47,623 nucleotides of DNA from the sequence record PQ850630.1; one strand, given 5' to 3'. The notes beneath the pieces are model-generated. The model was given only the letters and a program-made list of their open reading frames with translations. It had not been told where the DNA came from and made no database searches. The translations under genes were made by a program, and so were the position numbers. The number at the start of each line of letters is the position of its first letter. The first letter of the stretch is position 1. Source of the DNA: Escherichia phage TanjaMuster_Bas81. This document shows positions 3,808 through 20,412 of this stretch, in pieces.

Positions 3808-3995
3808 TGAGCGTTTATTTTATTCATGCTGAAGCCGTGCTGAGTAACGGCTGCGTTGCTGAGAAGATAGGAAGAATCGCAATTGCTGATAGCGCCGTGA
3901 CGGCGTTCGATGGATTCTTTTCTGATGCTACGGTTGCCAAGCTACGAGAGCAAGGTATTGAAGTTGTAATTGATAAATTCGAAAAGGTGGAGTGA
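3807..3995 (+). CDS. hypothetical protein
   Basis: track ORF; ATG at 3807 overlapping upstream stop. Confidence 0.5.
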   Translation: MSVYFIHAEAVLSNGCVAEKIGRIAIADSAVTAFDGFFSDATVAKLREQGIEVVIDKFEKVE

Positions 3996-4156
3996 TGGCA
4001 CTATTCTGGTCGTTCTGGATTCCATTTAACTTTATGTTCTGGTGGGCTATGGCCGCCGGAGTGAATGAACCAAGCATGCTACACTTCATGATCGGTTCAT
4101 TTTTCGCGGTGGTAACTGGTATTGTGCCATGTTTACTGTATCAATATTTCAAATAG
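3995..4156 (+). CDS. small hydrophobic membrane protein (53 aa, two predicted TM segments)
   Basis: manual translation MALFWSFWIPFNFMFWWAMAAG...; strong AAGGTGGAG RBS; TGATG coupling with upstream gene. Confidence 0.45.
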   Translation: MALFWSFWIPFNFMFWWAMAAGVNEPSMLHFMIGSFFAVVTGIVPCLLYQYFK

Positions 4157-4442: not shown

Positions 4443-5858
<1,416 letters not shown>

Positions 5859-5946
5859 CGCAAGACTGCCGCAACCTCGCATATCGCAGAGCCTGACCGA
5901 CCCGTTAGGCGCTGCAACCCGCCTGTCAAAGATGGATAAGGTGATA

Positions 5947-6789
5947 ATGCGCAAATACAGACAACTCAGGACTCGTGCGCTTGAGTTGTTTTGCGCCATT
6001 CCGCATAGTCAGGTTAACGCAGAATCAAGCGGCCTGTATTTCTACGATTTCAGTAGTGCACGTGCTGCCACGTTCATGGATGAATTGCGGGCGCTGATTG
6101 ACGAGATTCTGCTGGAAGGTGACGATTTCGGTCACGGCAAGATGTGGGCTAATGTGTTTATTGGTGATGCGTATCAGGCCGGAACGCAGAAGGCTAACTA
6201 TGAACTATCAAGCCTGTCTCCTGTTTACGCCGAGCAACGACCGATTGCTGCAATACTCTATAGCGAGCCTTATCTTAACCGTCTGCAACTGGCTTATACG
6301 CAGGGATACTCAGACTGGCGCGGATTGAGCGATTATTCCCGACAGCAACTGGCATCAGTCATTATGGAAGGCATTGCCCGTGGTGCTAATCCTCGCGATG
6401 TTGAAGCCGACATCGTTAAGCGTGTCGATGTGTCTCACAGCTACGCTAAGCAGCTGGCGCAGACAGAAATCACCGGTACGCTGCGTCAGGCTAACAGGCG
6501 TGAGGTCATTGAGGCGCGAGAGGAATTGGGTATTGAGACGGTGATGCTGTGGCAATCAGCATTAATGCGCACAACCCGCCAGACTCACGCAGCCAGGCAT
6601 GGACGGTTTTACACGCCAGAAGAGATTGATACGTTCTATAGCGAGAATGGCAACAGATATAATTGCCACTGCGCACAAACTCCGGCACTGGTGATGGATG
6701 GTAAGCCTGTCATTCTTGAGTCATCGCAGGAAAGGCTTAATAAGCAGCGTGAAGCATGGCAATCGGCAAACAAAAAGCCCTCTAAGTGA
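5947..6789 (+). CDS. head morphogenesis protein (Mu F / SPP1 gp7-like minor head protein)
   Basis: follows portal; start chosen at ATG 5947 after AAGGTGA; track ORF extends upstream to 5803 overlapping portal, so start is uncertain. Confidence 0.55.
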   Translation: MRKYRQLRTRALELFCAIPHSQVNAESSGLYFYDFSSARAATFMDELRALIDEILLEGDDFGHGKMWANVFIGDAYQAGTQKANYELSSLSPVYAEQRPIAAILYSEPYLNRLQLAYTQGYSDWRGLSDYSRQQLASVIMEGIARGANPRDVEADIVKRVDVSHSYAKQLAQTEITGTLRQANRREVIEAREELGIETVMLWQSALMRTTRQTHAARHGRFYTPEEIDTFYSENGNRYNCHCAQTPALVMDGKPVILESSQERLNKQREAWQSANKKPSK

Positions 6790-8514: not shown

Positions 8515-8581
8515 GGTTGTCATCCTCAATTAACATTGCGGAGGTGTTTCCGCTTGATGTAGATACTATGCATCATCACTC

Positions 8582-8610
8582 AATCTACGTCAACATCATT
8601 GTGATAGAAT
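8582..8610 (+). promoter_or_regulatory. extended -10 promoter (TGaTAGAAT) with AATCTACGTCA motif at -35 position, upstream of lysis genes
   Basis: TG 8602-8603, TAGAAT 8605-8610; motif 8582-8592; inverted motif copy at 8555-8565. Confidence 0.5.
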
Positions 8611-8636
8611 TAATCATTATTTGAACAGGAGGCAGA

Positions 8637-9077
8637 ATGAAACTATCGCAACGAGGTAAAAATTTCATCAAGTCATTCGAGGGGCTTGAACTACGCGTTT
8701 ATCCAGACCCAGCAACTGGCGGCGCACCATATACAGCGGGTTACGGTCACACTGGCGGTGACATAAAGCCCGGCATGACGGTAACACAAGCAATGGCTGA
8801 CGCATGGTTTGATAAGGATGTGGAGAAGTTCGAATCCGGCGTATCCGCGCTACTAACTGCGCCAACAACCCAGCCACAATTTGATGCAATGGTGTCTCTG
8901 GCGTACAACATCGGACTAGGTAACTTTGGTAAATCCACACTCCTGAAGAAGCACAATGCTAAATGCTACCAGTGCGCCGCTGGTCAGTTTCCTTTGTGGA
9001 ATCGTGCTAATGGCAAGGTTATGAATGGATTAACGCGGAGGCGTAACGCGGAGCGCGCTATGTATATGGGGCAATGA
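8637..9077 (+). CDS. endolysin (lysozyme, glycoside hydrolase family 24-like)
   Basis: N-terminal KLSQRG.NFIKSFEGL...GYGHTG motif typical of lambdoid R/R21-type lysozymes; AGGAGG RBS. Confidence 0.8.
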   Translation: MKLSQRGKNFIKSFEGLELRVYPDPATGGAPYTAGYGHTGGDIKPGMTVTQAMADAWFDKDVEKFESGVSALLTAPTTQPQFDAMVSLAYNIGLGNFGKSTLLKKHNAKCYQCAAGQFPLWNRANGKVMNGLTRRRNAERAMYMGQ

Positions 9078-9313
9078 AAAAGCTAAGCAACTGGCTGCTC
9101 GGCGTGTGGATTTCGTTCTGCTCGCTGTTGCAGTTATGGCCTGATGCAATGATGCATGTATGGGTAATGATGCCGGATGACCTGAAAGCGGCGCTACCGC
9201 CAATCGTGGTTAAAGGGGTGAGCTACTCAATCATGCTGATTGGCATCCTCGGCAAAATGCACGGCATGAGGAAAGAAAACCGGAGGCTGCGCGATGATGG
9301 CAACTCTCATTAA
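9074..9313 (+). CDS. putative holin (two TM segments, charged C-terminus)
   Basis: 79 aa, hydrophobic LLGVWISFCSLLQLW and VSYSIMLIGILG segments, basic/acidic tail; located between endolysin and Rz. Confidence 0.5.
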   Translation: MKKLSNWLLGVWISFCSLLQLWPDAMMHVWVMMPDDLKAALPPIVVKGVSYSIMLIGILGKMHGMRKENRRLRDDGNSH

Positions 9314-9791
9314 ATACTGGCGACCGCTGGCAATTATTATAATTGTTGCCGCTGGAGCGCTGTGGGTGGCAAATAAGGTATCCAATTATGGTGAACAGCA
9401 ATATGCCGATGGATATGCAAAAGCCATTGCCGAACAGAAGGCCGCAGAAGAACAAGAGGAGCAACGACGCAATGCAGAACTGCAAAAGATTCATGCCGAC
9501 GCACAGCAAAGGATTGACGCTGCGCGTAATGATGCTGTTAATGCTGCTACTAAGTCTGGCAGGTTGCAGCAACAGCTCGCAAATATCCGCAAGCAGCTCG
9601 TCGGATATTCCACCGCTGAGTCCATTGGCAATCCAGCCGCAGAAACCGGAGTTTTGCTTGCCCAATTGCTCTCAGAATCTGTCGAAAGAAATCGACAGCT
9701 GGCAGATTACGCTGACAGGGCCAGAGACGCAGGATTAGCGTGTGAGGCGCAATATAATTCATTGAGAGCGAGAAATGCTAAGCAGAGATAA
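9294..9791 (+). CDS. Rz: Rz-like inner-membrane spanin (i-spanin)
   Basis: N-terminal TM (LAIIIIVAAGALWVA) followed by long coiled-coil region rich in A/Q/E/R; GGAGG RBS; contains embedded +1-frame lipoprotein ORF. Confidence 0.7.
   Translation: MMATLIKYWRPLAIIIIVAAGALWVANKVSNYGEQQYADGYAKAIAEQKAAEEQEEQRRNAELQKIHADAQQRIDAARNDAVNAATKSGRLQQQLANIRKQLVGYSTAESIGNPAAETGVLLAQLLSESVERNRQLADYADRARDAGLACEAQYNSLRARNAKQR
9529..9738 (+). CDS. Rz1: Rz1-like outer-membrane lipoprotein spanin (o-spanin), embedded in Rz
   Basis: +1-frame ORF inside Rz with lipobox LSLAGC then Pro/Ser-rich mature region; start codon uncertain (ATG 9529/9532/9541). Confidence 0.6.
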   Translation: MMLLMLLLSLAGCSNSSQISASSSSDIPPLSPLAIQPQKPEFCLPNCSQNLSKEIDSWQITLTGPETQD

Positions 9792-9921
9792 GCGAAAAGA
9801 ATATGACAAGATGGCTTCTGATGTGGTAAGTGGTCGCGCTGGTTATCAGCCTGCGGTGAAATGCAGGCTAAGCAAATCGCCAAAGAAATGCTATGGAAAA
9901 CCACCTGAATCACTGCGCAAT

Positions 9922-9950
9922 AAAAAACCCCTCAATTGAGGGGTTTTTCT
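9922..9950. terminator. bidirectional intrinsic terminator
   Basis: cccctc/gagggg stem 9928-9943 flanked by A6 and T5 tracts. Confidence 0.75.
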
Positions 9951-9951
9951 T

Positions 9952-10089
9952 ATGAGTCAGCGATTCGCAGTCGCTGACTGCTACCAGAAAACATGTACCG
10001 AAGCTCACGTTGTCGTTACTTATAGCAAAGTAATAGTAGCAATAACCTTTCCCTGCGTCAACTCCATGCGCAATAAAAAAACCCCGTAA
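9952..10089 (+). CDS. candidate small hydrophobic peptide (45 aa)
   Basis: manual translation MSQRFAVADCYQKTCTEAHVVVTYSKVIVAITFPCVNSMRNKKTP; putative SD GAGGGG is buried in terminator stem; flanked by two terminators; speculative. Confidence 0.2.
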   Translation: MSQRFAVADCYQKTCTEAHVVVTYSKVIVAITFPCVNSMRNKKTP

Positions 10090-10099
10090 TGGGGCTTTG
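10074..10099 (-). terminator. intrinsic terminator of minus-strand cassette
   Basis: cccc/gggg stem 10082-10094, rev-comp followed by T7; directly after stop of gene 10102..10308. Confidence 0.6.
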
Positions 10100-10101
10100 T
10101 T

Positions 10102-10308
10102 TTAGAACTGAGTAATGCGAGCGTCTAAAATATTCCCATAGGTTCGCATTGCGTTAAGTTGAGTGAAGAGTAGATGCTTTTCAATTTCAGGAAGAAGCAT
10201 ATATTCAGGATTATTTTTGATAAAGGCATCAAGCATTTCCGCCCTTCCCCATAAGTCGCGAGCCTCATCAATAACTCTTTTTTGGTAAGGTTTCATTTCT
10301 TTAGTCAT
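10102..10308 (-). CDS. hypothetical protein
   Basis: 68-aa track ORF. Confidence 0.5.
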   Translation of the reverse strand: MTKEMKPYQKRVIDEARDLWGRAEMLDAFIKNNPEYMLLPEIEKHLLFTQLNAMRTYGNILDARITQF

Positions 10309-10740: not shown

Positions 10741-11231
10741 TATTTAATCTCTCCATTCAGTTCATTAACAATTAACGTCGCATAGCCAGCAATATCTTTC
10801 CAGCTATCGTCATAAGTCGGGTCGCCATTCAGGATGCGCCCAATCTTGTGCTGAATCATGTCGAGCGCCTCGCGTTGGCTTGGCGTCAGGTTGCGCCAGC
10901 CATCTACCTCGCGCATTACATCTTTCAGCTCCTGCATGATTTCAGCGCCGTCTTTGAATTTGCCGTATCGACTACCGCGTTCGGTGATGAGTTGCTCGGT
11001 TGCGTCAGCCTCTGGCGCGCCAATGCAATCGTTGAGGTCTTGCTCGTCGGTAATTGGCTCACGGTATGCAATAACAACATCCCCGCAACCCTCAATCACT
11101 TCAATGCGACCAGCATAATCTATGCTTAGATAGAAAATCTCACCAGTACTTCCTGACTTAACTACAAGATAAGCCGTGTCATGGCCAGCAAAATCATCAT
11201 CACATCCTTTCAGATATTTCCACTTTTTCAT
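10740..11231 (-). CDS. hypothetical protein (acidic, conserved-looking LTPSQREALDMIQHKIGRI...DSWKDIAGYA segment)
   Basis: 163-aa track ORF; family not confidently recognised. Confidence 0.55.
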   Translation of the reverse strand: MKKWKYLKGCDDDFAGHDTAYLVVKSGSTGEIFYLSIDYAGRIEVIEGCGDVVIAYREPITDEQDLNDCIGAPEADATEQLITERGSRYGKFKDGAEIMQELKDVMREVDGWRNLTPSQREALDMIQHKIGRILNGDPTYDDSWKDIAGYATLIVNELNGEIK

Positions 11232-11422
11232 TTCATCGTCACCAGATTATTTTCATCAACATTAAAATTCTCACGAATCACCTGGTACATCTCATCTTTA
11301 GGCATATCAGCCAGTGCCACATAGCAGCGGGCAAAGTAGCGAACATCACGGAGTGTCAGCGGCTGGCGCTTCTCCACAATGCTGGTGATAATGTCCATCG
11401 GCTCGCGTCGTGGTCTTGGCAT
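11228..11422 (-). CDS. hypothetical protein
   Basis: track ORF trimmed to ATG 11422 with AAGGAG RBS. Confidence 0.5.
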   Translation of the reverse strand: MPRPRREPMDIITSIVEKRQPLTLRDVRYFARCYVALADMPKDEMYQVIRENFNVDENNLVTMK

Positions 11423-14306: not shown

Positions 14307-16183
<1,877 letters not shown>

Positions 16184-16194
16184 GGAGCCGAATA

Positions 16195-17265
16195 ATGGAA
16201 AAGATTATTTTTACCAAAGACTTGGTAGCCAACTCCGCAGTAGTGGCTGACCAGTGGAAACATCTCACTATCGACCGTAAGGTGTTCTGCAATGCAGAAG
16301 CTGAGCTGGCGAAAACTTACGGTGTGAACGCCACCGCACTGGTAACGAAAGATTACTGGCGCGACGTGGACAACGTCACCACCCGCGTTTTCCGCAACGA
16401 AGCTGGTCAGGACATGATGGCTGACCTGATGGTTATCGCGGCAAACATCAACATCGGTAAGACTGTAGCAATCAGCCGCATCGCTTCCGATGCTGGTAAG
16501 GTCGTCCGCACCCTGTCTGGTCAGGAACCGGAAGATTTGGATAAAACTCGCTACGATTACACTGGCGATGTGATTCCAATCTTCAAGACTGGCTACAGCC
16601 GCGAATGGCGCGAACTGCTGGGTATGCAGTCTGAAGGTTTTGACCCACTGCTGGACGATCAGGCTAACGTCACCTTCAACCTGCGTTCCGACATGGCGCA
16701 GTATCTGCTGACTGGTGACCAGACTCTGAACGTGAACGGCGTTTACACTGGATACGGTATCACCAACCACCCGAACACTGTTCAGGTTAACCTGAATGCT
16801 TCCGGCGGCCTGAACATCGACCTGCAAACCGCAACACCAGACGAAATCGTGACCTTCTTCAATCAGGATTTCCAGGCTATTCTTGATGCGCAGAACGTAT
16901 TTGAGCAGGTGACTCTGTGGGTTTCCCCAGCAGTACGCCGCAGCTTCATGCGCCCGTATTCTGATGCAGCAGGTTTCAAAGGTGGCACTGTTGAGCAGTA
17001 CATCACGCAGTTTGGCAACGGTCGCATCGGCAAGATCGGCACCAACTTCCTGCTGACCGGCAACCATTTCGTTGGCTATGTTCGCAACGACATGTACATC
17101 CGTCCGCGTGTTGCTCAGCCTGTTTCCACCTACGCAGCAGCCCGTGCAAACCCGCACGATAACTTCAATTTCCTCGTGTGGTCTGCTTTTGGTCTGCAAA
17201 TTCGCAAGGATGCCACTGGCAAGTCAAGAGTATTCAACGGCTACGGCACGCAAACTACGGTGTAA
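16195..17265 (+). CDS. major capsid protein
   Basis: 356 aa, strong GGAG RBS, followed by attenuator hairpin; position after scaffold/decoration genes. Confidence 0.6.
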   Translation: MEKIIFTKDLVANSAVVADQWKHLTIDRKVFCNAEAELAKTYGVNATALVTKDYWRDVDNVTTRVFRNEAGQDMMADLMVIAANINIGKTVAISRIASDAGKVVRTLSGQEPEDLDKTRYDYTGDVIPIFKTGYSREWRELLGMQSEGFDPLLDDQANVTFNLRSDMAQYLLTGDQTLNVNGVYTGYGITNHPNTVQVNLNASGGLNIDLQTATPDEIVTFFNQDFQAILDAQNVFEQVTLWVSPAVRRSFMRPYSDAAGFKGGTVEQYITQFGNGRIGKIGTNFLLTGNHFVGYVRNDMYIRPRVAQPVSTYAAARANPHDNFNFLVWSAFGLQIRKDATGKSRVFNGYGTQTTV

Positions 17266-20216: not shown

Positions 20217-20245
20217 ACTATAAACGCCGCACTAATCTACGTCAA
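20217..20245 (-). promoter_or_regulatory. sigma70-like promoter for minus-strand cassette (-35 TTGACG, 17-nt spacer, -10 TATAGT)
   Basis: rev-comp of 20240-20245 is TTGACG; rev-comp of 20217-20222 is TATAGT; 35-40 nt upstream of gene start 20174. Confidence 0.6.
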
Positions 20246-20262
20246 CAGGAATATGCTAAAAT
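20234..20262 (+). promoter_or_regulatory. extended -10 promoter (TGcTAAAAT) with AATCTACGTCA motif at -35 position; face-to-face with the minus-strand promoter
   Basis: motif 20234-20244, TG 20254-20255, TAAAAT 20257-20262. Confidence 0.5.
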
Positions 20263-20292: not shown

Positions 20293-20412
20293 ATGGGTTC
20301 AACAAACGGTCCATCTCGTTCACGCGCTACTGGCAACACAAAAACTGGCGGCAAAACTGGCGCAGTGAAGCCAAACGGTTCTACCCGCTCACCGTCGCGC
20401 GGTAAAAAATAA
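20293..20412 (+). CDS. small basic Gly/Ser/Thr/Lys-rich peptide (39 aa)
   Basis: manual translation MGSTNGPSRSRATGNTKTGGKTGAVKPNGSTRSPSRGKK; TAATG overlap with next gene. Confidence 0.3.
   Translation: MGSTNGPSRSRATGNTKTGGKTGAVKPNGSTRSPSRGKK

What the first reader, a model, noticed from the sequence alone, without database searches (positions are those of the whole stretch)
8637..9791. Lysis cassette in endolysin-holin-Rz order with Rz1 lipoprotein embedded in the +1 frame of Rz
A soluble GH24-type endolysin is followed by a 79-aa two-TM holin candidate and a coiled-coil Rz. Inside Rz, the +1 frame encodes a peptide with lipobox LSLAGC and a Pro/Ser-rich body (9529..9738), the classic embedded o-spanin architecture. 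The cassette sits between head genes and is driven by its own extended -10 promoter carrying the recurrent motif.
Basis: partly seen in the sequence, partly recalled or inferred. Interest (0 to 1): 0.35.

Follow-up and report, generated by a model that had tools for sequence, protein, structure and literature searches.

The report
Ordinary phage lysis cassette, embedded spanin
This is a standard four-gene bacteriophage host-lysis module (cell-wall enzyme, membrane hole-former, and a two-part outer-membrane disruptor with one gene nested inside the other); the same layout is already described for closely related Salmonella and E. coli phages, so it is real but ordinary.

Summary
Window 8637-9791 (+) holds four lysis genes:
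- a soluble GH24 endolysin (8637-9077)
- a 79-aa holin candidate with two transmembrane domains (TMDs) (9074-9313)
- an Rz-type i-spanin (9294-9791)
- an o-spanin lipoprotein gene wholly embedded in the +1 frame of Rz, ending at 9738

The embedded frame is not chance. It is open, with an L[AV]GC lipobox and two further Cys, in all 28 distinct relatives. The other alternative frame carries 132 stops. Rz third-codon-position variability drops inside the overlap. The protein is 64% identical to the annotated Rz1 of phage epsilon15.

Corrections:
- The o-spanin precursor most likely starts at 9472, not 9529. That ATG is conserved, has a GAGGAG Shine-Dalgarno (SD) sequence, and is the start used in the curated phage Skate record. 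The mature lipoprotein is unchanged.
- The "recurrent motif" is real, with 4 copies. It reads best as the -35/-10 of divergent minus-strand promoters lying back-to-back with TGnTAnAAT extended -10 elements.
- The head genes are 1.8 kb and more than 4.5 kb away, not adjacent.

The architecture is published for relatives (Skate, swi2, D10). Holin activity is untested; one flawed negative test exists for swi2. Interest is low.

The parts
8602..8610 (+). Extended -10 promoter element TGATAGAAT (TGn + TAGAAT), 26 nt upstream of the endolysin ATG. No recognisable -35.
   Evidence: Invariant or near-invariant in 22/22 aligned relatives. The simple sigma-70 scan did not call it because no -35 is present. 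Function is inferred, not shown.
8565..8593 (-). Divergent leftward sigma-70-like promoter (TTGACG-17-CATAGT) lying back-to-back with the lysis promoter. Its -35 is the 'recurrent motif' GTCAACA read on the + strand.
   Evidence: 9/12 match. The same arrangement occurs at 20245..20217, 23868..23840 and 25925..25897. The composite motif is found 4 times against about 0 expected.
8627..8632 (+). Shine-Dalgarno AGGAGG for the endolysin
   Evidence: Read directly from the sequence.
8637..9077 (+). Soluble GH24 (T4/P22-type) muramidase endolysin, 146 aa. Catalytic E15, D24 and T33, with no signal or SAR segment.
   Evidence: PF00959 1.5e-43. phrog_7 endolysin 2.8e-55. PDB 6et6 9e-34 and P22 lysozyme 2anv 5e-22, with the FEG...D...T residues aligned. 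Maximum KD17 0.8.
9074..9313 (+). Holin candidate, 79 aa, class II topology. TMD1 about residues 6-22 (Trp-rich, moderately hydrophobic), TMD2 about 43-61, and a highly charged C-terminal tail. The start overlaps the endolysin stop (ATGA).
   Evidence: phrog_13249 'holin' 1.1e-51, phrog_1356 'holin' 3.6e-07 and Pfam DUF7940 2.5e-10. Hydropathy. AF2 helices 2-20, 22-32 and 35-76. Homologues 92-95% identical are described as class II holins with 2 TMDs in Skate, swi2 and D10 (PMC6606912, PMC8185280, PMC8402666). Distant homologue: the BcepNazgul holin.
9294..9791 (+). i-spanin (Rz-like, DUF2514), 165 aa. N-terminal TMD (about residues 9-27), two long periplasmic helices separated by a short linker (108-113), and one periplasmic Cys (C150). 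It overlaps the holin by 20 nt, with GGAGG 7 nt upstream.
   Evidence: PF10721 3.9e-29 and phrog_312 9e-48. Hydropathy. AF2 H9-107 and H114-164, pLDDT 80.6. 47% identical to epsilon15 Rz.
9472..9738 (+). o-spanin (Rz1-like) precursor, 88 aa, in the +1 frame and wholly embedded in Rz (0.36-0.89 of Rz length). Lipobox LAGC with the Cys codon at 9565-9567. The mature lipoprotein is 57 aa (9565-9735), with Ser at +2, 12 Ser, 7 Pro and 2 further Cys.
   Evidence: phrog_11621 1.4e-32. Frame, lipobox and Cys residues conserved in 28/28 relatives. 76% identical over the full 88 aa to the curated Skate o-spanin and 64% to epsilon15 Rz1. The ATG at 9472 is conserved in all relatives, with GAGGAG 10 nt upstream.
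9923..9951 (+). Intrinsic terminator hairpin AAAAACCCCUC-AAUU-GAGGGGUUUUU followed by a T-rich tail. An A-run on the 5' side makes it potentially bidirectional. It closes the lysis transcription unit.
   Evidence: RNA fold -22.7 kcal/mol, z = -5.4, 0 of 200 shuffles as stable. The stretch 9910-10102 is conserved in relatives.

Best explanation
This is the host-lysis transcription unit of a roughly 47.6-kb siphophage. The phage belongs to the Cedarrivervirus/Skatevirus/Swiduovirus group of enterobacterial phages.

The unit appears to run from an extended -10 promoter (8602-8610) to a hairpin terminator (9923-9951). It carries four tightly packed genes that look translationally coupled.

1. A cytoplasmic GH24 muramidase accumulates in active form.
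2. A 79-aa class II (N-in/C-in, two-TMD) holin accumulates in the inner membrane. At a programmed time it forms holes large enough to release the soluble endolysin to the murein.
3. The i-spanin Rz is a type II inner-membrane protein with two periplasmic helical domains. The o-spanin Rz1 is an outer-membrane lipoprotein made from the +1 frame inside the Rz gene. The two join through their C-termini into a periplasm-spanning complex that is probably disulfide-stabilised. Once the murein is degraded, the complex fuses or disrupts the outer membrane.

Shown here: gene presence, family membership, sequence features, and conservation of the overlapping frame.

Inferred from established knowledge of lambda S/R/Rz/Rz1 and related systems: all biochemical steps (hole formation, lipoylation, outer-membrane sorting, complex formation, membrane fusion) and promoter and terminator use.
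For: Gene content and coordinates.

Endolysin: PF00959 1.5e-43, PDB GH24 homologues with E/D/T aligned, and no hydrophobic N-terminus.

Holin: PHROG holin families, DUF7940, two hydrophobic helices plus a charged tail, positioned between endolysin and spanins, and 223 phage records with homologues mostly annotated as holin.

Rz: DUF2514, phrog_312, an N-terminal TMD, and helix-linker-helix.

Rz1:
- Lipobox LAGC with Ser at +2; the mature part is Pro/Ser-rich.
- PHROG 11621.
- 28/28 relatives keep the frame, lipobox and Cys residues, with 0 stops against 132 in the other alternative frame and reduced Rz third-position entropy in the overlap.
- 64% identity to annotated epsilon15 Rz1 and 76% to curated Skate o-spanin.
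- Its position within Rz (end at 0.89 L) matches the typical embedded geometry reported by Kongari et al. 2018 (PMC6139136).

Promoter and terminator.
Against: No function was tested here.

The only published test of a 94%-identical holin (swi2 orf49) found no lethality or lysis. That protein was expressed as a soluble 61-kDa trigger-factor fusion at 16 C (PMC8185280). The test is weak, but it is the only experimental datum.

Holin TMD1 is only moderately hydrophobic. Its KD17 is about 1.25, and only TMD2 passed my 1.4 threshold.

The Rz1 start codon is ambiguous, with ATGs at 9472, 9493, 9529, 9532 and 9541. The ATG at position 9517, which many relatives have, is ACG here.

The + strand promoter has no -35 and was not called by the consensus scan. 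The genome-wide count of TGnTAKAAT (6 against 3.4 expected) is not significant on its own.
Confidence: 0.9

Rival explanations
1. The 79-aa DUF7940 membrane protein is not the functional holin. It might be an accessory or regulatory membrane protein, or a holin that works in a non-canonical way. Release of the endolysin would then depend on another, unidentified factor.
For: The swi2 homologue (94% identical) showed no lytic or toxic activity when expressed (PMC8185280). There is no NCBIfam model hit. The Pfam family is a DUF, and no paper in the library mentions it. TMD1 is weakly hydrophobic.
Against: The swi2 test used a soluble trigger-factor fusion at 16 C, which would not be expected to insert into the membrane normally. 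The gene sits between, and overlaps, the endolysin and the spanin genes in more than 200 phage genomes. It has the size, two-TMD layout and charged C-tail typical of class II holins. No other small membrane-protein gene lies within 4 kb. The other membrane ORFs in the window match superinfection-immunity and 'lipoprotein' PHROGs or nothing at all. The endolysin is soluble and therefore needs a holin.
Confidence: 0.08
2. The +1-frame 'Rz1' is a chance open frame inside a low-complexity coiled-coil gene, not a gene.
For: Rz-type genes rich in Gln, Ala and Arg codons easily give long alternative open frames. The antisense frame 9231-9665 is also open for 144 codons. Most GenBank relatives do not annotate it.
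Against: The frame is open in 28/28 distinct relatives, down to 61% Rz identity, with the lipobox Cys and two downstream Cys conserved. There are 0 stops against 132 in the other alternative frame. Rz third-position entropy is depressed in the overlap. There are significant hits to an o-spanin PHROG (1.4e-32) and to annotated Rz1 proteins of unrelated phages: epsilon15, N4-like Klebsiella phages and Pectobacterium phage Possum. By contrast, the length of the antisense open frame varies from 80 to 175 codons among relatives.
Confidence: 0.02
3. This is a pinholin/SAR-endolysin system, as in phage 21. The weakly hydrophobic TMD1 of the holin leaves the membrane, and small holes merely depolarise the membrane to release a membrane-tethered endolysin.
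For: The holin has class II two-TMD topology like S21-68, with a moderately hydrophobic TMD1 containing Gly, Ser and Trp.
Against: The endolysin has no N-terminal hydrophobic or SAR segment at all (maximum KD17 0.8; its N-terminus is MKLSQRGKNFIKSFEG). In most relatives the alternative endolysin paired with the same holin is a lambda-R-like soluble transglycosylase. Both need large holes.
Confidence: 0.02

Closest known systems
Lysis cassettes of Salmonella phage Skate (NC_054639), Escherichia phage swi2 (NC_054649), Salmonella phage D10 (MZ489634) and Salmonella phage gmqsjt-1 (PP530290)
   Same: The genomic position, the order (endolysin, holin, then Rz with embedded Rz1) and the upstream promoter region are the same. 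The holin is 92-95% identical, Rz 80-90% identical and the o-spanin 76% identical to Skate. gmqsjt-1, D10 and HC6 also share the intact GH24 endolysin at 86-88% nucleotide identity. The cassette is described in print as a class II holin plus an embedded i-/o-spanin pair (PMC6606912, PMC8185280, PMC8402666).
   Different: Skate, swi2, STGO-35-1 and most other relatives carry a 92-aa remnant of the GH24 gene plus an inserted lambda-R-like transglycosylase ahead of the holin. The window has a single intact GH24 gene: the distance from endolysin start to holin start is 437 nt against 729 nt. The exact protein sequences of the window are not in the 15-billion-protein collection.
Phage epsilon15 / phiV10 Rz-Rz1 (DUF2514-type embedded spanins)
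   Same: The spanin sequence family is the same: Rz is 47% identical and Rz1 64% identical. Both have the embedded +1 architecture, the LAGC lipobox, and the two conserved Cys in 'PEFCLPxC'.
   Different: epsilon15 has the order holin-endolysin-Rz/Rz1. Its holin is unrelated (no alignment) and its endolysin is different. It is a temperate podophage.
Phage lambda S-R-Rz-Rz1 (the experimental paradigm)
   Same: The logic is the same: a soluble endolysin released by a holin, then a two-component spanin with the o-spanin gene embedded in the +1 frame of the i-spanin gene. The i-spanin has the same TMD plus two-helical-domain layout, and periplasmic Cys residues are available for disulfides (PMC6139136).
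   Different: The gene order differs: lambda has the holin first. The lambda holin is class I (3 TMDs) with a dual-start antiholin, whereas here there are two TMDs and a single start. Lambda R is a transglycosylase, not a GH24 muramidase. The Rz sequences are barely alignable (25% identity, E 0.02), and Rz1 similarity is confined to the signal peptide.
Burkholderia phage BcepNazgul / KL1 and Pseudomonas phage holins (DUF7940, phrog_1356)
   Same: These are distant homologues of the 79-aa holin (36-38% identity) and are annotated as holins next to endolysins.
   Different: The spanin and endolysin partners are different. None of these holins, to my knowledge, has been characterised experimentally.

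Membership tests
GH24 / Pfam Phage_lysozyme (PF00959) endolysin | Profile match above the curated threshold | tested here: met
   148.5 bits against a gathering score of 22.3, covering profile positions 1-125 of 125.
GH24 / Pfam Phage_lysozyme (PF00959) endolysin | Catalytic Glu...Asp...Thr triad in the N-terminal lobe | tested here: met
   E15 (FEG), D24 and T33 align with the corresponding residues of solved GH24 lysozymes (6et6, 9kbq). There is a 3-residue loop insertion, so the spacing is E-x8-D-x8-T rather than E-x8-D-x5-T.
Soluble (holin-dependent) as opposed to SAR or signal-peptide endolysin | No N-terminal hydrophobic segment | tested here: met
   The maximum 17-residue Kyte-Doolittle mean is 0.8. 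The N-terminus MKLSQRGKNFIKSFEG is polar.
Class II holin | Small protein with two TMDs, N-in/C-in, and a charged C-terminal cytoplasmic tail | tested here: met
   The protein is 79 aa. Hydrophobic helices lie at about residues 6-22 (KD about 1.25) and 43-61 (KD 1.89). The N-terminus is MKK, the loop is acidic, and the tail KMHGMRKENRRLRDDGNSH is charged. TMHMM on the 94%-identical swi2 protein gave 2 TMDs (PMC8185280). No dedicated TM predictor was available here.
Class II holin | Gene adjacent to the endolysin gene in a lysis cassette | tested here: met
   It overlaps the endolysin stop (ATGA) and overlaps the Rz start by 20 nt. The arrangement is conserved in relatives.
Class II holin | Lethal, timed hole formation that releases endolysin | not testable with these tools
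   The only published test, a TF fusion of the swi2 homologue at 16 C, was negative but poorly suited to the question (PMC8185280).
Two-component spanin, i-spanin (Rz-like, DUF2514) | Type II inner-membrane protein: a single N-terminal TMD and a periplasmic alpha-helical or coiled-coil body with a central linker | tested here: met
   TMD about residues 9-27 (KD up to 2.15). AF2 helix 9-107, break at 108-113, helix 114-164. PF10721 102 bits against a cut-off of 26. Coiled-coil propensity itself was not computed.
Two-component spanin, o-spanin (Rz1-like) | Lipoprotein signal with lipobox [LVI][ASTVI][GAS]C and no Asp at +2 (outer-membrane sorting) | tested here: met
   LAGC with Ser at +2, preceded by the hydrophobic stretch VMMLLMLLLS and, from the 9472 start, by a K/R-containing n-region. 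The lipobox definition is from PMC6139136. LipoP and SignalP were not available.
Two-component spanin, o-spanin (Rz1-like) | Short, Pro-rich mature periplasmic domain with Cys residues for disulfide bonding | tested here: met
   The mature domain is 57 aa with 7 Pro, 12 Ser and 2 Cys beyond the lipid-modified Cys. Rz has 1 periplasmic Cys.
Two-component spanin, embedded architecture | o-spanin ORF lies entirely within the i-spanin ORF in another frame, and is conserved as a coding frame | tested here: met
   9472/9529-9738 lies inside 9294-9791 in the +1 frame. The frame is conserved in 28/28 relatives, with signs of constraint on both frames.
Two-component spanin | Lipoylation, outer-membrane localisation, Rz-Rz1 complex formation, and requirement for outer-membrane disruption | not testable with these tools
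   These need complementation of lambda Rz-am/Rz1-am and biochemical assays.
Lambda Rz/Rz1 sequence family specifically | Significant sequence similarity to lambda Rz and Rz1 | tested here: not met
   Rz against lambda Rz: 25% identity, E 0.02. Rz1 against lambda Rz1: similarity only in the signal peptide. It is a functional analogue that belongs to the epsilon15/DUF2514 family instead.

The most novel reading that the evidence does not exclude
The DUF7940 79-aa protein, with its Trp-rich, weakly hydrophobic first TMD, might not be a canonical large-hole holin. This would fit the one negative expression test in swi2. It could instead release a soluble endolysin by an undescribed route, or need a partner. 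That would make this widespread cassette, present in more than 200 phage genomes, an uncharacterised holin type. Nothing in the sequence evidence requires this.
Probability: 0.06. Interest if true: 0.4.

Novelty: already known. Interest (0 to 1): 0.08.

Why it matters
It matters little beyond correct annotation. The cassette is a textbook Gram-negative phage lysis module, and the same arrangement is already published and annotated for genus-level relatives.

There are two practical points. First, most GenBank relatives, and automatic gene callers, omit the embedded o-spanin gene, so it should be annotated here as 9472-9738. Second, the endolysin slot in this phage group is a swap site. Some members have an intact GH24 gene; others have a GH24 remnant plus a lambda-R-like transglycosylase. 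This is a neat but already noticed example of lysis-gene mosaicism.

Tried and rejected
- The consensus promoter scan found no + strand promoter upstream of the endolysin, because no -35 is present. The extended -10 was found only by pattern search, and its genome-wide count is not significant on its own.
- The terminator scan missed the 9923-9948 hairpin. Folding showed it.
- The literature search for 'DUF7940' gave 0 papers.
- NCBIfam had no model for the holin or Rz. For Rz1 it gave only weak signal-peptide-level lipoprotein hits, and its endolysin hits were below cut-off.
- The exact-sequence look-up of the four proteins found none of them.
- My Kyte-Doolittle threshold of 1.4 flagged only TMD2 of the holin.
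- Other holin candidates were considered and rejected. The homologue of STGO-35-1 gp25, annotated 'holin' (window 11228-11422, minus strand), has no TMD and matches an unknown-function PHROG. ORF 25341-25535 (minus strand) matches superinfection immunity. ORF 20412-20852 matches a 'lipoprotein' PHROG. ORF 3995-4156 has no hits and lies 4.5 kb away.
- The 54-aa ORF 9775-9939 was rejected as a gene. It has no PHROG hit and runs through the terminator. In the four contigs that share it, amino-acid identity (85-89%) is lower than DNA identity (91-97%).
- The antisense ORF 9231-9665 was rejected because its open length is not conserved.
- A pinholin/SAR reading was rejected because the endolysin lacks any SAR segment.
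Full report
**What the window is.** The 47.6-kb window looks like a complete siphophage genome. Megablast of the first 25 kb gives about 90% identity over about 70% of the query to several phages: Escherichia phages ASO78B and Bas77-80, Shigella phage Sf11 (genus Cedarrivervirus) and Salmonella phages INT55/59. The portal gene is at 4446-5858 and head morphogenesis at 5803-6789. Head decoration is at 15719-16183 and the capsid-type virion protein at 16195-17265. Between them lies about 7.5 kb of small genes on both strands. The finding sits inside this stretch.

- **Endolysin, 8637-9077, 146 aa.** It is a GH24/T4-P22-type lysozyme.
  - It hits PF00959 at 1.5e-43, 148.5 bits against a cut-off of 22.3, and phrog_7 at 2.8e-55.
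  - Its solved homologues are 6et6 (9e-34) and P22 lysozyme 2anv (5e-22), among others. E15, D24 and T33 align to the catalytic positions, apart from a three-residue loop insertion.
  - It has no hydrophobic segment (maximum KD17 0.8), so it is a soluble, holin-dependent enzyme.
- **Holin candidate, 9074-9313, 79 aa.**
  - Its start overlaps the endolysin stop as ATGA.
  - It hits phrog_13249 'holin' (1e-51), phrog_1356 'holin' and Pfam DUF7940.
  - The N-terminus is MKK. There is a Trp-rich, moderately hydrophobic helix at about residues 6-22, an acidic loop, a strongly hydrophobic helix at about 43-61, and a highly charged tail.
  - A single-sequence AlphaFold model gives helices 2-20, 22-32 and 35-76.
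- **Rz, 9294-9791, 165 aa.**
  - It overlaps the holin by 20 nt and has GGAGG 7 nt upstream of its start.
  - It hits DUF2514 (3.9e-29) and phrog_312 'Rz-like spanin' (9e-48).
  - It has an N-terminal TMD (KD up to 2.15). The model shows helix 9-107, a break at 108-113 and helix 114-164.
- **Rz1, +1 frame inside Rz.**
  - The frame reads ...MMLLMLLLSLAGC, with a canonical LAGC lipobox and Ser at +2.
  - The mature part is 57 aa, with 12 Ser, 7 Pro and two further Cys.
  - It hits phrog_11621 'Rz-like spanin' at 1.4e-32.

**Is the embedded frame more than chance?** Yes. I fetched 28 related loci from IMG/VR and two from GenBank.

- Every relative keeps the +1 frame open, including one with only 61% Rz identity. 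All keep an L[AV]GC lipobox and the downstream Cys pair.
- In a codon alignment of 28 distinct sequences, the +1 frame has 0 internal stops. The other alternative frame has 132.
- Mean entropy at Rz third-codon positions, which are Rz1 second positions, is 0.41 in the overlap. It is 0.62 upstream and 0.86 downstream. This is what selection on both frames predicts.
- tblastn finds the C-terminal half of the peptide in 159 phage records. These include unrelated phages whose records annotate an Rz1, such as epsilon15.
- Pairwise, the window protein is 64% identical to epsilon15 Rz1, and Rz is 47% identical to epsilon15 Rz.
- Lambda Rz is barely alignable (E 0.02). This is the epsilon15/DUF2514 spanin family, a functional analogue of lambda Rz/Rz1 rather than a member of its sequence family.

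**Correction to the Rz1 start.**

- Many relatives have an ATG four codons upstream. In the window that codon is ACG (9517).
- The window uniquely has an ATG at 9493.
- All relatives, and the window, share an ATG at 9472 with GAGGAG 10 nt upstream.
- The curated phage Skate record, from the Center for Phage Technology, starts its 88-aa o-spanin at this same ATG. The window's 88-aa version aligns to it end to end at 76% identity.
- I therefore give 9472-9738 as the likely precursor. The mature lipoprotein, starting at the Cys codon 9565, is the same whichever start is used.
- The gene ends at 0.89 of the length of Rz, typical of embedded spanins (Kongari et al. 2018, PMC6139136).

**Transcription signals.** TGATAGAAT, an extended -10, lies at 8602-8610, 26 nt before the endolysin ATG. 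It is conserved, with about 85 nt of flanking sequence, in all 22 relatives aligned. No -35 is recognisable.

The 'recurrent motif' is real. ATCTAC-N0/17-GTCAACA-N4-9-TGnTAnAAT occurs four times (8583, 20235, 23841, 25898), all on the + strand, against about 0 expected. Read on the minus strand, however, GTCAACA is TGTTGAC. This is the -35 of a sigma-70-like leftward promoter at each site:

| Site (+ strand coordinates) | Leftward promoter | Match |
|---|---|---|
| 8593..8565 | TTGACG-17-CATAGT | 9/12 |
| 20245..20217 | TTGACG-17-TATAGT | 10/12 |
| 23868..23840 | TTGACA-17-TAGATT | 10/12 |
| 25925..25897 | TTGACA-17-TAGATT | 10/12 |

At two of the sites ATCTAC is the -10 TAGATT. So the motif marks back-to-back divergent promoters, at points where minus-strand gene clusters meet rightward genes. 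It is not a feature particular to the lysis promoter.

Downstream, a strong hairpin at 9923-9948 followed by a T-run closes the unit (-22.7 kcal/mol, z = -5.4). None of these signals has been tested functionally.

**Comparison with what is known.** The same cassette is in print for close relatives.

- swi2: one holin with two TMDs, two lysins and Rz/Rz1 equivalents (PMC8185280).
[quoted passage not shown] Its lysozyme is explicitly noted to differ from that of LPST10 (PMC8402666).

The order endolysin-holin-Rz/Rz1 is shared by all of them. The exact window proteins are not in the 15-billion-protein collection. They are nonetheless 76-95% identical to annotated ones.

**The one real difference among relatives is the endolysin slot.** The window has one intact GH24 gene. 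So do gmqsjt-1 and, on the evidence of their contiguous 86% DNA matches across the endolysin gene, HC6, D10 and others. Most relatives carry two genes ahead of the same holin:

- a 92-aa remnant of the GH24 gene, which keeps the first 7 residues and the C-terminal lobe but has lost the catalytic N-lobe;
- an inserted lambda-R-like transglycosylase.

**Uncertainties.** Holin function rests on homology, topology and position. The only experiment on a homologue, swi2, was negative. It used a soluble trigger-factor fusion at 16 C, which I regard as uninformative. No alternative holin is nearby. A pinholin/SAR reading is excluded because the endolysin is soluble. The lipoprotein and TM calls were made with a regex, hydropathy and AlphaFold, not with LipoP or TMHMM.

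**Verdict.** The finding is real and correctly interpreted in all essentials. It is an ordinary, already described lysis module.

Noticed in passing
window 8583-8610, 20235-20262, 23841-23883, 25898-25945: There are four copies of the composite motif ATCTAC-N0/17-GTCAACA-N4-9-TGnTAnAAT, all on the + strand, against about 0 expected. They read as back-to-back divergent promoters: a minus-strand TTGAC(A/G)-17-TAnAnT promoter abutting a + strand extended -10 with no -35. The sites at 8583, 20235 and 25898 lie where minus-strand gene clusters meet rightward genes. Strand assignment upstream of 23841 is uncertain.
   Followed up: partly
window 4400, 8602, 14267, 23875, 25937, 30388: All six TGnTAKAAT matches in the genome are on the + strand. 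Five lie about 25-40 nt upstream of a + strand gene start (portal, endolysin, the 14301 ORF, major tail protein, tail assembly). The one at 30388 lies about 95 nt upstream of the ORF at 30483. The count itself (6 against 3.4 expected) is not significant.
   Followed up: partly
L001 2584-3316 (STGO-35-1), L033 512-1244 (Skate), compared with window 8637-9077: Most relatives carry two genes before the same holin. One is a 92-aa remnant of the GH24 endolysin: it keeps the first 7 aa and the C-terminal lobe but has lost the catalytic E/D/T lobe. The other is an inserted lambda-R-like transglycosylase. The window keeps a single intact GH24 gene. The remnant forms its own PHROG (10457) and is annotated 'endolysin'. 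The swi2 paper reports weak activity for it.
   Followed up: partly
window 11228-11422 (-); L001 5187-5381: The RefSeq annotation 'holin' for STGO-35-1 gp25 looks wrong. This 64-aa protein and its window homologue have no hydrophobic segment and match only an unknown-function PHROG (14963).
   Followed up: yes
window 9472-9541: Start-codon turnover in the o-spanin signal peptide. The ATG present in about two thirds of relatives (window position 9517) is ACG in the window and in six relatives. The window alone has gained an in-frame ATG at 9493. The ATG at 9472, with its GAGGAG Shine-Dalgarno sequence, is universal.
   Followed up: yes
window 9740-9925: The last 50 nt of Rz and the 130 nt after it are shared with only four IMG/VR contigs (91-97% DNA identity) and not with the GenBank relatives. 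A 54-aa ORF here (9775-9939) has no family hit and runs into the terminator. Its amino-acid identity is lower than the DNA identity, so it is probably non-coding.
   Followed up: partly
window 25341-25535 (-), 20412-20852 (+), 3995-4156 (+): There are other small membrane proteins far from the lysis cassette. One is a superinfection-immunity-like protein (phrog_1039, 3.7e-24). One is a 146-aa multi-TM protein in a PHROG labelled 'lipoprotein' (phrog_14688). One is a 53-aa two-helix hydrophobic ORF with no family hit, lying between the terminase and portal genes.
   Followed up: partly
window 9231-9665 (-): A 144-codon antisense open frame lies opposite Rz. Its open length varies from 80 to 175 codons among relatives, so it is probably a by-product of Rz codon composition.
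   Followed up: yes
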